A program made the translations under genes and the position numbers. Under the pieces are notes generated by a model. It saw only the letters and a list, made by a program, of their open reading frames with translations. It searched no databases and was not told the origin of the DNA. Shown here in pieces: positions 7,363-40,200 of a stretch of DNA of 64,000 bases (position 1 is its first letter; each line of letters opens with the position of its first letter). Source of the stretch: Eledone cirrhosa (Eukaryota); assembly GCA_964016885.1 (NCBI GenBank), contig OZ024761.1, forward strand, positions 29,636,001-29,700,000. Reading direction: 5' to 3'.

Positions 7363-7675
7363 AAATTAATTTGTATAACAAAATTCCTACAAAATATTTT
7401 CAAAATATCCTACAAAATATTTTCAAAATATCATAAAAGACACTTGTATTGTATTTCATTAGAAATACTGTAACAAAACAATTGTCATTAATTGTAAAAC
7501 ATTTTAATAAAAATATGAAAGTTTTCAATTTTCTACATTGTTCTCCCTATTTCAAAACCCTTTTTATAGTTATTAAAATCTTTATTGTTTATTTTCATAA
7601 TAGAATTTTTGTTGTCAAAGAAAGTTATGGAGAACATTTCAGTAAAAATTAACAAAAAAAATATTTCAAACTTAC

Positions 7676-7843
7676 AGAGGGCTTGTAATCTTGTGATAGT
7701 TTTTTTCCAAAGGACATAGAAAGCACTAAATAATGCTATTATATAGAAGATGATGTCTCTAAGAAACGGTCTCTCCATTAATTTGAAAGGTTTTATTATG
7801 GATATAACTCCAGCAACAACTGTTGTCACAAACAGGCCAGCAC
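7676..7843 (-). pseudogene. Orphan antisense copy of NCLX exon E with its splice sites
   Basis: Reverse complement of 37876-38043 inside the inverted duplicate. Confidence 0.9.
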
Positions 7844-8257
7844 CTAGAATATATGATGTATATATGTATATGTACATATATATATATATATATATATATA
7901 GGAAAAAGTATGACCCCGACGGCAGAGATCAAGCCGTTTCGACGGCTATTATATATATATATATACATATATATATATATTTATTAAAATAACAGATAAA
8001 AGTTTAAGCAAAGAATCGCTGCTTTCACCCTTAACGGGATCTTCTGAAACTGTATATATATGTATATATATATAAGTATATATATATATATATATATATA
8101 TATATATGTGAGAAAAACCACAGACGCTCCATCTCAATTCTACTTTTGAAAAGCAGAAGAACTGCGAAACCGGTAAAGGAACCAAATAAATATATATTTT
8201 AAAAAAAAAGACTCCAGTTGCATTTTCGATTCCACCTTTTTTCCATATATATATATT

Positions 8258-34200: not shown

Positions 34201-37200
34201 AATGCAAAACCTTGAACATTCTACTCTGCTCGGTGTGTGTGTGTGTGCACGTATATATATATATATATATATCATCATCATTTAACGTCCATTTTCCACG
34301 CTAGCATGGGTCTGGACGGGAATTGTCCCACTTGAGGCAAGATTGGTTGTCTTGCTCAGGACTGTCTGGCAGGTTTTCTACGGCTGGATGCCCTTTCTAA
34401 CACCAACCACGTTTACAGTGTGGACTGGGAGGTTTTTACTGTGTTACCTACACGGCCACATTACAGCATGGACTGTGTGTTTTTTTGTCGTGACACCTAC
34501 ACGACCTCATTTGTTTAGGACTGGATGTTGTGGGACCAACATAGCTTTACATCGAAAGGGGTGGTGTAGATGGCGGTGGGGGTAGGGTTAGTGGGACGGG
34601 GGTGTATTTTGGTTAAGAGGTGCCTACTGACTGTAGGTTTCGCTTTGTACTTAGGCAAGGCGGGTCTTCTGTATTACTATGTACCGCCAAAGATCTCGGT
34701 CCAGTGACATTGTCTTGGAGAGGTGTAAGTGTGTGAGGTAGGATTTTATCAAGTCGTCCCAGGTTTTTCTGGGTCTGCCTACTCCGTGGCTACTGTCTAT
34801 TTTGATCGCCCTGCACTTTTTTTATACAGCTGTCATCTTTCATGCGCATCACGTGACCATACCAACGTAGTCTTCTCTCGAGTAAACAGCATCTGATCCC
34901 TCTTATTCCTAATTTCTCACTTAGTTCATTTATGCTTTGCCGTTCACGTATATTACTATTACACATCCAACAGAGAATGCAAGCTTCATTCCTCTCCAGT
35001 CTACGTATATCCTCTGCACACAAGGCCCATGTCTCACTGCCATGTAACATCGCTGTTCGTATGCAGGCATCATACAGCCTGCCTTTTATTTTTAGAGAAA
35101 CCTTTAGCCAATAGTGTTATAAGCTCTCTGAACCTTTTCCATCCCGTTCGGACTCTAGCTACATTACTTTTGGAGCACCCTCCACCACTGCTGATTTTGT
35201 CACCCAGGTAACGGAAGGTGTCCACTATTGCTATAGAACCATCTGGGCAATGGAATGAGCTAGTATTCTGTGGGCATTTGCTGCTACTTATTGCACCAGA
35301 GCACCGGCCACATATAAAATCTATATTCTTATATATATATATATATATATATATATATATATGTGTGTGTGTGTATGTATATATATATATATATATATAT
35401 ATATATATATATATATATGTGTATGTGTGTATGTATATATATATATATATATATATATATATATATATATGTGTATGTATATATATGTATGTATATATAT
35501 ATATGTGTATATATATATATATATATATATATATATATATATATATATATATATATATATATGTGTATATATATATATATATATATATATATATGTGTGT
35601 ATGTATATATATGTATGTATATATATATATGTGTGTATATATATATATGTATGTATATATATATATGTGTGTATATATATATATATATATATATATATAT
35701 ATATATATATATATATATATATATATATATATATATATGTATGTATATATATATGTATGTATATATATATATGTGTATATATATATATATATATATATAT
35801 ATATATATATATATATAAGTCTAAAATCTGTCCTAAGCCAGAAGGCTTATTCGTCCAGTGCTAGATAGATAGATATACACACACAAATAGATAGATAGAT
35901 ATACACACACATAATTATGTAAACCTAATTAAAATATATACATATATATACATACATATATACACATCTATAGATACTATCATTGTTTTCAAGCCCATTT
36001 AATGCCAATGTTTATAATGTCAATTTTTATCATCATCATCATCATCATCATCATGCTTACAAGGGTGGGACAGGTCTTATTCAGCACAGCATCTCTCCAC
36101 TTGTCACGGTCCTTCGTCATCTCCTTCGTGAGCTTCAGCAATCTGAGGTCTGTTCTCACCACCTCCGCCCATGTTTTTCATGGTCTACCTCTACCACATC
36201 TTCCTTCACCTGGCATTTCCTGGCACTTCTTCACCCATAGGTCATCCTCCATGCGCATCACAGTCTCCTCTCTCGCACACTACATTCTATCCCTCTGACA
36301 CAGTTTCTCTCTCAACACATCCATGCTGGGTCGTTCACGCACATTGAGACTGCACATCCAACGGAGCATGCTTGCCTCATTTCTCTCCAGCCGTCGCATA
36401 TCCTCTGCAATTGCTGCCCAGAGTCTCACTACCATGCAGCATCGCGCTCCTCACACAGGCATAATATAACCGGCCTTTCGTATGCAGGGAGAAACTCTTC
36501 TTCGTCAGCAGAGGAAGAAGCTCCCTAAACTTCTTCCAACCCGTCCTTATTCTAGATACTATGGCCTCGGAACAGCCCTCTCCCATGCTAATCTGATCTC
36601 CTAGGTACCGGAAGCTATCAACCACTTCTATAGCACCCGCCTGCATTTGAAAAATGTGGCTATCAATGCGACTTCTACTGTCTAATTTCCCTGTACATCT
36701 ACTGCATACGTATTTCTCCCTACCTGTTAGTTTGCCTGCTATCTCACTACATCTCTTGTGTACCCAAAATCTGCATTGTATGCATTTTATATATATATAT
36801 ATACACATGTATATATACATACACACATATATATATAAATATATACATATATATACACATATATATATATACACACATATATATATAAATATATACATAT
36901 ATATACACATATATATATATACACACATATATATACACATATATATATATATATATATATATATATATATATATATATATATATATATCATCATCATCAT
37001 CATCATCAACGTTTAACGTCCGTGTTCCACGCTTGCATGGGTTTGGACGGGGGTAGTCCCACTTGAGGCAAGAGTGATTGTCTTGCTCGCATAGGACTGT
37101 CTGGCAGGTTTTCTACAGTTGGATGCCCTTCCTAACACCAACCACATTTACAGTGTGGGTCTGGGAGGTTTTTACCGTGTTGCCTACACGGCCACATTAC

Positions 37201-40200
37201 AGCGTGGACTGTGTGTTTTTTTGTCGTGACACCTACACGATCTCATTTGTTTCGTCCTCGATGGCGCGGCACCAACATAACTTTACATAGAACAGGGTGG
37301 TGTGGATGGGGTGGGGGTGGGGGTGGTGGGACGGGGTGTATTTTGTTAGAGATGCCTACTGGCTGGAGTAGGTTTTACTATATATTTAGGTAAGGCGGGT
37401 CTTCTCTGTTACTGAGTACCGCCAAAGGTCTCGGTCCAGTGACATTGTCTTGGAGAGGTGTAATATATATATATGGAAAAAAGGTGGAATCGAAAATGCA
37501 ACTGGAGTCTTTTTTTTTTAAATATATATTTATTTGGTTCCTTTACCGGTTTCGCAGTTCTTCTGCTTTTCAAAAGTAGAATTGAGATGGAGCGTCTGTG
37601 GTTTTTCTCACATATATATATATATATATATATATATATATACTTATATATATATACATATATATACAGTTTCAGAAGATCCCGTTAAGGGTGAAAGCAG
37701 CGATTCTTTGCTTAAACTTTTATCTGTTATTTTAATAAATATATATATATATGTATATATATATATATAATAGCCGTCGAAACGGCTTGATCTCTGCCGT
37801 CGGGGTCATACTTTTTCCTATATATATATATATATATATATATGTACATATACATATATACATCATATATTCTAGGTGCTGGCCTGTTTGTGACAACAGT
37901 TGTTGCTGGAGTTATATCCATAATAAAACCTTTCAAATTAATGGAGAGACCGTTTCTTAGAGACATCATCTTCTATATAATAGCATTATTTAGTGCTTTC
38001 TATGTCCTTTGGAAAAAAACTATCACAAGATTACAAGCCCTCTGTAAGTTTGAAATATTTTTTTTGTTAATTTTTACTGAAATGTTCTCCATAACTTTCT
38101 TTGACAACAAAAATTCTATTATGAAAATAAACAATAAAGATTTTAATAACTATAAAAAGGGTTTTGAAATAGGGAGAACAATGTAGAAAATTGAAAACTT
38201 TCATATTTTTATTAAAATGTTTTACAATTAATGACAATTGTTTTGTTACAGTATTTCTAATGAAATACAATACAAGTGTCTTTTATGATATTTTGAAAAT
38301 ATTTTGTAGGATATTTTGAAAATATTTTGTAGGAATTTTGTTATACAAATTAATTTTGTTTGGAACATTACTTAACAACGGACTCTTACATAAAACTATG
38401 CCATTTCTTTGTGTGTGTGTCTCTCTCTCTCTCTCACACACATCTCTCTTTCTCACTCTCTCTCTTTCTCTCACACACACTCACACACATCTCTCTTTCT
38501 CACTCTCTCTCTTTCTCTCTCACACACACACACTCACACACATCTCTCTTTCTCACTCTCTCTCACACACACTCACACACATCTCTCTTTCTCACTCTCT
38601 CTCTTTCTCTCACACACACACATCTCTCTTTCTCACTCTCTCTCTCTCTCTCACACACATCTCTCTTTCTCACTCTCTCTCTCTCTCTCACTCACTCTCT
38701 CACACACACACATCTTTGCTCTCTGTCTCTCTCTCACCCACACATCTCTATACTCTCTGCCTCTCACACACATACACACACATCTCTCTCACATATACAC
38801 ATCTATGCTCTGTCTCTGTTTCACACACACACACACACACACACACACACACACATCTATGCCCTCTCTCTCACCTATAACCTCTTCAATATTCCCCTCC
38901 TCCCCCAACCATCTCTCTCTCTCTCTCTCTCACCTATACTCTGTTCTCTTACAGTCTTCATCCTGTTATATGTAGTCTATGCCTGTATTGTCATCATTAG
39001 TCGATATATCAACATGAGGATGAAGAATGGTGAGAAATCTCCATGTAAGTTGAATACATGTTACTGATATAAAATAAAGATGATATATATATATACATGC
39101 ATGTGATATCATCAGGTATTGTAATATAACATATATATATATATTATATATAACATATATATATATGAGATTCCTGATGATTTCTAAAGAATGAAACAGT
39201 TCTAGTCCTGTAGAATCTCATCTATATTAAAACTGTTATACTCTGCAATGTATTGAGTACCTTACTTACTGTGGTTACCTCCGATTCAACCCGGAATATC
39301 GTATATATATATATATATATTTTTAATGCAATGAAATATCTATGATCTTCGGCAAATCACTGATGAGGGACTTATTTTATTACATGTTATCCATGTGCTA
39401 CCTGCAGTATTTTTCTCTATATTTTAATATATATATATATATATATATATTTCTTAAGGTTTGTTGGTTCACCACTGGATAGAACTAGAACTGGTCATTC
39501 CGTATGGTCAATCCTGGTGTAATATTGTGAAGAGTACTCAACGCAGTACAGTTCACCCATCTTCGTTTGTGTAGTTGGTGGTGCGAATACGGAGTTAATT
39601 ATAAATCAAGTAACAGGAGGCTAGACTGGTGTAAATCCTTGAAAGGTTTATTATACTATAATAATTTCAATGACCAGGTTCCATATGAATCCAGTGATAT
39701 CATCAGGTATTGTAATATAACATATATATATATATATATATATATATATAAGTTAAAACATATGGATTACATTGAGTTCTTCATACAGAATAGACCCCAC
39801 AACTTACAGTGGATACCTCTGTGTATATATATATATATATATATATAGTTATACTTTGGGAGGGTCATGTTTATATATGCATATATAAAAAAAAATTTGT
39901 TAAATAAAAATACACACAAAGGACACAGAACTCCAGAGTCATCGGGCGTAAAGACCAAAATCAAAAGAAGACGTGACATATTTAATCATAAAGTACCAGT
40001 CATGTACTGGGTAATTGCTGGCCTTGTGCTAAAAGCAGAAACAATCATTTTACTATTATTAACATCATTTCCCATATATGGTAGTTGGAATTTATCGCCC
40101 TGCAACAATTGTTATTCCCTAACTACTCTTGTATACAAAGAAAACCCATTTAAAATGGTCTTGTTATCCTGCAACAACTGATGTTCCCTAACTACCCTTG

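What the first reader, a model, noticed from the sequence alone, without database searches (positions are those of the whole stretch)
7363..38356. 1.4-kb inverted copy of an NCLX exon 28 kb upstream: possible long-range dsRNA partner
Seen: 7363-8740 is the reverse complement of 36979-38356 with no net indel, and the mirrored ORF translations, including (TA)n tracts, are identical. It covers all of the 168-nt in-frame exon E and both splice sites. Inference: the copy is very recent or an assembly artefact. If the NCLX transcript starts upstream of 7.3 kb, or this copy is transcribed on +, the RNA would pair with exon E. That could drive exon skipping, siRNA production or A-to-I editing. Established: coleoid cephalopods show abundant ADAR recoding.
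Basis: partly seen in the sequence, partly recalled or inferred. Interest (0 to 1): 0.75.

Follow-up and report, generated by a model that had tools for sequence, protein, structure and literature searches.

The report
Inverted exon copy: DNA-repair scar
In an octopus-type genome assembly, a 1.4-kb piece of the mitochondrial calcium-exchanger gene NCLX, including one whole exon, is present a second time, back to front, 28 kb upstream at the broken end of a retrotransposon; it is likely a very recent DNA-repair scar of a known kind rather than an RNA switch.

Summary
7363-8740 is the reverse complement of 36979-38356 at 1377 of 1378 bases and covers NCLX exon E (37876-38043) with both splice sites. 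The copy starts where a LINE (6757-7364) breaks off. It ends in the tail of a 97.5% identical LINE inside the NCLX intron, followed by an AT run. One end lies in homology and the other has almost none. This fits a repair-mediated duplication, as known from vertebrates, including an inverted exon copy in human ACSBG2. Is it real? Short-read contigs begin exactly at 7363 in 2 of 3 runs of one sample, as a true branch would predict. The third runs past that base, and no contig spanning the junction was listed, so an assembly error remains possible (about 20%). The dsRNA idea has no support here. The transcription start was not found, the arms are 28 kb apart, and one apparently spliced contig carries exon E with no differences. 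The scan has noted this class before on other DNA.

The parts
7363..8743 (-). Inverted copy (acceptor arm) of NCLX intron-exon E-intron, ending in a copied LINE 3' end
   Evidence: 99.86% identical to the reverse complement of 36976-38356
7676..7843 (-). Copied exon E with both splice sites, antisense to NCLX
6757..7364 (+). LINE A: 5'-truncated LINE remnant that also lacks its last ~140 nt and tail; the copy starts at its broken end
   Evidence: 8 substitutions in 314 aligned bases (97.5%) against LINE B, plus gaps of 28 and 3 nt; other copies in the window are 82-91% alike. Other family members continue past this point.
8256..8733 (+). Copy of LINE B (5'-truncated LINE 3' end with GAT-repeat tail) inside the duplicated block
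   Evidence: 8426-8710 is 100% identical to a longer family member on contig C28.
8732..8966 (.). Acceptor's right flank: AT run plus a dispersed repeat that starts with the same AT run at other loci; the right junction lies in this AT run
   Evidence: 3 of 3 other copies examined start the same way
36976..38356 (+). Donor arm: end of intron D-E with antisense LINE B (about 36986-37463), exon E, and the first 313 nt of intron E-F
37876..38043 (+). NCLX exon E, 168 nt, phase 1/1, equal to about residues 176-231 of mammalian NCLX
28051..49929 (+). NCLX (SLC8B1) coding span, 15 exons found: B 28051-28206, C 30137-30189, C2 31842-31899, D 32383-32494, E, F 38955-39044, then nine more to the stop. 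All collinear on +. First exon and promoter not found.
   Evidence: tblastn with two octopod proteins; splice sites read from the sequence

Best explanation
The block at 7363-8743 is a near-perfect inverted copy of the NCLX exon E region that was likely written into a DNA break in LINE A very recently by templated repair, and it likely has no function. Inferred steps: (1) a break occurred near the 3' end of LINE A; (2) the right-hand end paired with the nearly identical, oppositely oriented LINE B 28 kb away in the NCLX intron, through the LINE tail and AT run; (3) synthesis ran through LINE B and on past the homology, across exon E, for 1.38 kb in all; (4) the new strand was joined to the left-hand end with little homology. 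Two bases (AA) are shared at the joint, and a TCCAAA motif lies 4 nt further out in the donor. The copy is inverted because A and B face opposite ways. Shown: the anatomy, the identities and the intact collinear gene. Inferred: the order of events, that the junction exists in the animal's DNA, and neutrality.
For: The left junction falls at the broken end of LINE A, and the right junction in the LINE tail/AT run that donor and acceptor share. A is the closest relative of B in the window, 97.5% against 82-91%. The GAT count is 7 in both donor and copy, while it ranges from 1 to 10 over 20 tails; 2 other tails also have 7, so this is weak. No target-site duplication is seen apart from uninformative AT runs. 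The donor is 28 kb away in a 3-Gb genome. Both arms lie in one gap-free stretch of about 665 kb. Contigs of runs X1 and X2 (521 and 523 nt) begin at their first letter exactly at 7363, and that 30-mer has no third site in G000. A graph branch from two different left neighbours would give this (inference). Precedent: PMC2671141 and PMC5104497.
Against: The contig of run X3 (604 nt, same sample) does not stop at 7363. It runs on for 83 letters that do not fit the window there, presumably the gene-side flank (letters not seen), so that run shows no branch. The contig over the shared part has depth 4.1-5.7, no higher than other long contigs in these runs (4.1-10.5); the tool warns that depth is not copy number. 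X1-X3 are one sample and may be the assembled animal. PMC2671141 accepts only donors within 5 kb as confident repair duplications; 17 of its 29 inspected inter-chromosomal cases looked retrotransposed. LINE A shows no significant conversion gradient (9 private changes in 481 nt, 1 in 127 nt). The LINE subfamily is young genome-wide, so A-B similarity alone is not special.
Confidence: 0.62

Rival explanations
1. Assembly artefact: a chimeric or mis-corrected read, or a mis-join through the LINE 3' ends, placed donor sequence at 7363.
For: The arms are identical except for one base at a homopolymer boundary, a typical place for consensus error. The X3 contig runs past 7363 unbranched. Depth over the shared part is not visibly raised (not a copy number).
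Against: The left junction has no long homology to mis-join on. No scaffold gap lies within 159 kb of the window. Contigs of two runs start at exactly the junction base.
Confidence: 0.2
2. Retrotransposition with 5' transduction: an antisense intronic RNA ending at LINE B's tail was reverse-transcribed by the LINE machinery and inserted at the AT run beside LINE A, deleting A's end.
For: The block ends at a LINE GAT tail. The family looks young or active (a 100% identical longer copy on C28). Most of 20 tails examined are followed by AT runs. In PMC2671141 distant duplications were often retrocopies.
Against: Landing within 28 kb of the source is about 2 in 100,000 for a random target in 3 Gb (arithmetic). 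B is a 480-nt remnant without its 5' part. A's 3' end must also be lost. No target-site duplication is seen.
Confidence: 0.08
3. One reading: the copy lies in the NCLX pre-mRNA (or a + strand RNA) and pairs with exon E, causing editing, skipping of E, or back-splicing of exons B-D.
For: A 1.38-kb near-perfect duplex would cover both splice sites of a frame-symmetric exon. No neighbouring gene was recognised between the copy and exon B, so a long first intron is not excluded. Coleoids edit repeats and introns widely (PMC9068888, passages).
Against: Run X4 has a 2811-nt contig that fits the genome only over exon E, with 0 other letters and 378 letters before the exon against 379 for exons B-D, so an included, unedited form exists. 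X4 is another sample and may lack the copy. In human Alu pairs long loops disfavour pairing (PMC12695637, passages). 27 other inverted matches of 101-676 nt already link the upstream region to NCLX introns. The copy is too young to be an evolved switch.
Confidence: 0.06
4. Scar of an inversion made by staggered breaks, with the 28-kb middle later flipped back by recombination between the arms (or shown in the wrong orientation).
For: Inverted duplications at both ends of a segment are the signature of such inversions (recalled).
Against: Exons B-D in the middle are collinear with E and the later exons, so two events are needed, with a null allele in between.
Confidence: 0.04

Closest known systems
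Repair-mediated duplications (RDs) of vertebrate genomes, including the inverted copy of ACSBG2 exon 7 (Pace et al. 2009, PMC2671141; parts 1-3 of 8 read, and passages)
   Same: A two-copy sequence lodged in a transposon remnant, with the donor on the same chromosome, introns kept, microhomology and deletion at the joints and no target-site duplication. A full exon with splice sites was copied in the opposite orientation.
   Different: Donor 28 kb away (their confident class: under 5 kb). Length 1381 nt (their proximal maximum: 619). One end lies in long LINE-LINE homology. The host is a mollusc. No empty orthologous site was seen.
Long-tract gene conversion with non-canonical (microhomology) termination (Hartlerode et al. 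2016, PMC5104497; abstract only); also called one-sided invasion (title seen in the reference list of PMC4888836)
   Same: Copying starts in homology, runs beyond it for kilobases and is joined to the second end by microhomology.
   Different: Shown in mammalian reporter cells with the sister chromatid as donor. Here the donor is an ectopic, inverted LINE copy and the event is inferred from sequence.
Inverted-repeat dsRNA edited by ADAR (human inverted Alu pairs, PMC12695637, passages; squid repeat editing, PMC9068888, passages)
   Same: Two complementary arms could pair if they are in one transcript.
   Different: The loop is 28 kb, co-transcription is not shown, and no editing was seen in the one contig over exon E.

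Membership tests
NCLX / SLC8B1 gene | Exons match NCLX proteins over the full length, with intact frame and splice sites | tested here: met
   only the first few residues (upstream exon) are missing
Repair-mediated duplication (Pace 2009) | [quoted passage not shown] | tested here: met
Repair-mediated duplication (Pace 2009) | Insertion interrupts a transposon whose two halves flank it | tested here: inconclusive
   LINE A's 5' part is on the left. The LINE 3' end on the right is identical to donor LINE B, so A's own end is replaced or cannot be told apart.
Repair-mediated duplication (Pace 2009) | Microhomology, deletion or filler at the joints | tested here: met
   Left: 2 shared bases and an offset 6-nt motif. 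Right: shared AT run. About 140 nt of A lost or overwritten.
Repair-mediated duplication (Pace 2009) | No retrotransposition marks (tail, target-site duplication) | tested here: inconclusive
   No target-site duplication seen, but the block ends in a LINE GAT tail that is already present in the donor
Repair-mediated duplication (Pace 2009) | Donor within 5 kb (the paper's confident 'proximal' class) | tested here: not met
   28,232 nt between the arms. It is therefore not filed in that operational class; it works like it.
Repair-mediated duplication (Pace 2009) | Empty orthologous site in a relative or another allele | not testable with these tools
   No related genomes are held for G000
Real genomic duplication (against artefact) | Reads or contigs bridge both junctions | tested here: inconclusive
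   Contig starts at 7363 in 2 of 3 runs of one sample; no bridging piece listed; the right junction lies in skipped repeats
Long-range dsRNA splicing/editing element | Both arms in one transcript, or antisense RNA present | not testable with these tools
   First exon not found; no raw RNA reads offered
Long-range dsRNA splicing/editing element | Clustered A>G changes in, or skipping of, the target exon | tested here: inconclusive
   One contig includes exon E with 0 differences; contigs drop rare variants and the carrier state of X4 is unknown
RTE-clade LINE (for A and B) | Reverse transcriptase groups with the RTE clade | not tested
   Label recalled from motifs; no tree built. A related copy at 9457-11061 has Pfam RVT_1 and PHD; A's own ORF piece has no Pfam hit.

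The most novel reading that the evidence does not exclude
The copy is real and segregating and lies in a first intron longer than 20 kb. In carriers a 1.4-kb near-perfect duplex then closes over exons B-D and masks exon E, producing hyper-edited or exon-E-skipped NCLX mRNA and a circular RNA of exons B-D. That would be a naturally occurring, newborn allele for testing how one repair accident creates an editing and splicing substrate in an animal with very high ADAR activity.
Probability: 0.06. Interest if true: 0.6.

Novelty: new member of a known kind. Interest (0 to 1): 0.15.

Why it matters
Most likely little: it is one clear, very young example of repair copying between two LINE remnants in a mollusc. 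One search (octopus + 'repair-mediated duplication') returned only a plant paper, which does not show that cephalopod cases are unreported. If real, the 1.38-kb inverted pair is a liability, because recombination between the arms would flip exons B-D and break NCLX. If both arms are co-transcribed, carriers and non-carriers give a natural test of long-range ADAR substrate formation.

Tried and rejected
Junction test: 7331-7420 was laid on runs X1-X4. No listed piece bridges 7362/7363, and depth at 7367-7387 equals the shared contig alone (5.7, 4.81, 0, 0). My reading is that short low-depth links next to very deep repeats are pruned by the assembler; this is recalled, not tested. No RNA holder listed; X4 is taken as RNA only because its contig leaves the genome at both splice sites. 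X4 gave no cover of 7397-7669, which is not evidence either way. 4 of 23 listed runs were laid; three RAD-seq runs and the runs of other organisms were not. First exon: five degenerate patterns from the N-termini of octopod NCLX found nothing in 1-28050 or in the 60 kb upstream. 226 of 308 open frames in low-copy DNA from -45 kb to 28 kb were read by eye, with no host gene recognised; they were not scanned against Pfam. A genome search with 8744-8966 returned nothing although local copies exist, because common words are skipped. A conversion gradient in LINE A was not significant. A simple inversion of the middle is rejected because the exons are collinear. I recall a short human NCLX isoform lacking this same 56-residue exon, but three searches did not confirm it. 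PMC9902777 (passage) says only that two splice isoforms exist. Two primary papers were not held.
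Full report
Observation. The reverse complement of 36979-38356 matches 7363-8740 at 1377 of 1378 bases with no gaps. The one difference (8200) lies where a T run meets an A run. The arms extend to 7363-8743 and 36976-38356, 28,232 nt apart. In the 3.0-Gb genome G000 the exon-bearing half has two full-length matches, both in this window, and the first 30 bases occur exactly twice. In 964 kb centred on the window it is the only dispersed pair among 49 alignments of at least 500 nt and 97% identity; the other 48 are tandem arrays. 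The nearest scaffold gaps are 442 kb to the left and 159 kb to the right of the window.

The gene. Exon E translates to a piece of NCLX, 80% identical to Octopus sinensis and Argonauta proteins and matching residues 177-230 of mammalian NCLX. Fifteen coding exons run collinearly on + from 28051 to 49929 with canonical splice sites. Exon E is phase 1 at both ends, so skipping would keep the frame and remove 56 residues from the first Na_Ca_ex domain. The octopod proteins have 3-7 more residues at the start, so at least one upstream exon is expected. I could not find it or the promoter. About three quarters of 1-28000 is repeat.

Anatomy of the copy. To the left of 7363 lies LINE A (6757-7364), a 5'-truncated remnant that stops about 140 nt short of its family's GAT-repeat tail. 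The copied block ends in LINE B (8256-8733; antisense in intron D-E at the donor), which has that tail. A and B differ at 8 of 314 aligned bases plus two gaps, whereas other copies in the window are 82-91% alike. The subfamily is young genome-wide, with a 100% identical longer copy on C28 among 49 matches. The right junction lies in an AT run that both the donor and the acceptor's flanking repeat possess; 3 of 3 other copies of that repeat start with the same run. The left junction shares two bases, with a TCCAAA motif 4 nt further out in the donor. No target-site duplication is evident. So one end sits in homology and the other has almost none, and the copy's orientation follows from A and B facing opposite ways.

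Mechanism. The simplest account is a break near A's 3' end, invasion of B by the right-hand end, synthesis through B and beyond the homology across exon E, and microhomology joining to the left-hand end. This matches long-tract conversion with non-canonical termination (PMC5104497, abstract) and the repair-mediated duplications of PMC2671141 (parts 1-3 of 8 read). That paper reports ACSBG2 exon 7 copied in the opposite orientation within its own gene, without coding constraint. It trusts only donors within 5 kb, so this case works like that class but fails its distance rule. Retrotransposition is the main biological rival because the block ends at a LINE tail. It needs an antisense RNA from a remnant, a target 28 kb from the source and loss of A's end. 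All steps are inferred from sequence.

Is it real? Only assembled contigs of public runs were laid, 4 of 23 listed. X1-X3 are one sample, possibly the assembled animal. In X1 and X2 the contig over the unique part begins at its first letter exactly at 7363, with 0 differences over 490 nt. In X3 it continues for 83 letters that do not fit the window at that point. Two runs starting at the very base of the junction is what a branch between two left neighbours would leave, and no third genomic site can cause it. An allelic difference at that base could also cause it. Against: X3 shows no branch, and depth over the shared part (4.1-5.7) is not above that of other long contigs (4.1-10.5), although the tool says depth is not copy number. 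The direct junction test was blank and is reported under Tried and rejected. I put the chance that it is real at about 80%.

The dsRNA idea. It needs both arms in one RNA, which is untested. Run X4 (another sample, not on record as RNA) has a 2811-nt contig that fits the genome only over exon E plus one shared base. It has 0 other letters and 378 letters upstream of the exon, against 379 for exons B-D. I take it as spliced NCLX mRNA in which exon E is included and unedited at majority level. I did not see the rest of its letters, contigs drop rare variants, and X4 may not carry the copy. Long loops disfavour pairing in human Alu pairs (PMC12695637, passages). If the transcript did start upstream of 7.3 kb, 27 other inverted matches (68-98%, 101-676 nt, 3 of them from the LINE inside the copy, none over an exon) would already be present. 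The new pair would be the longest and the only exonic one, and would also flank exons B-D, predicting back-splicing. Squid editing does target repeats and introns (PMC9068888, passages), so an incidental effect is possible. An evolved switch is not plausible at 99.9% identity.

Other papers seen: 10.1101/2021.01.24.427974 (passages; an RTE LINE expressed in octopus brain; not compared with A or B), PMC4888836 (passages) and PMC9902777 (passages). No supplements were read. After forming this reading and finding PMC2671141 myself, I saw two earlier notes of this scan describing the same class in other genomes; I did not test them.

Verdict. It is most likely a very recent repair-mediated inverted duplication between LINE remnants (0.62); artefact 0.2; retrocopy 0.08; functional RNA duplex 0.06; inversion scar 0.04. 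New member of a known kind; interest 0.15.

Noticed in passing
window 8967-9472 (+) and 13216-13434 (-): Open frames that look like a Penelope-type reverse transcriptase piece and a GIY-YIG-like piece on opposite strands (labels recalled from motifs; Pfam gave no supporting hit). A LINE ORF with RVT_1 and PHD lies between them (9457-11061).
   Followed up: partly
L019 (G000:C28:46676663-46679947): Longer LINE copy, 100% identical to LINE B over 285 nt; the subfamily may be currently active.
   Followed up: partly
L022 (C1344) and L023 (C4): Each holds two young copies of this LINE tail to tail in inverted orientation within about 2 kb: much closer dsRNA candidates than the finding.
   Followed up: no
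window 28030-28050: The octopod X1-type start (about six residues before the CRDF motif) has no in-frame ATG at the matching intron end here. X4's contig appears to start at about the second base of exon B, as alternative first exons would cause.
   Followed up: partly
window 4454-4641, 11159-11349, 11947-12058, 24518-25005, 39175-39301: Short foldback (palindromic) repeats flanked by AT runs, probably miniature DNA transposons; several are shared between the upstream region and NCLX introns.
   Followed up: no
window 32706-33503, 40502-41139, 43604-44733, 46302-47183, 56808-58710: Minisatellite arrays, several starting right beside NCLX exon ends.
   Followed up: no
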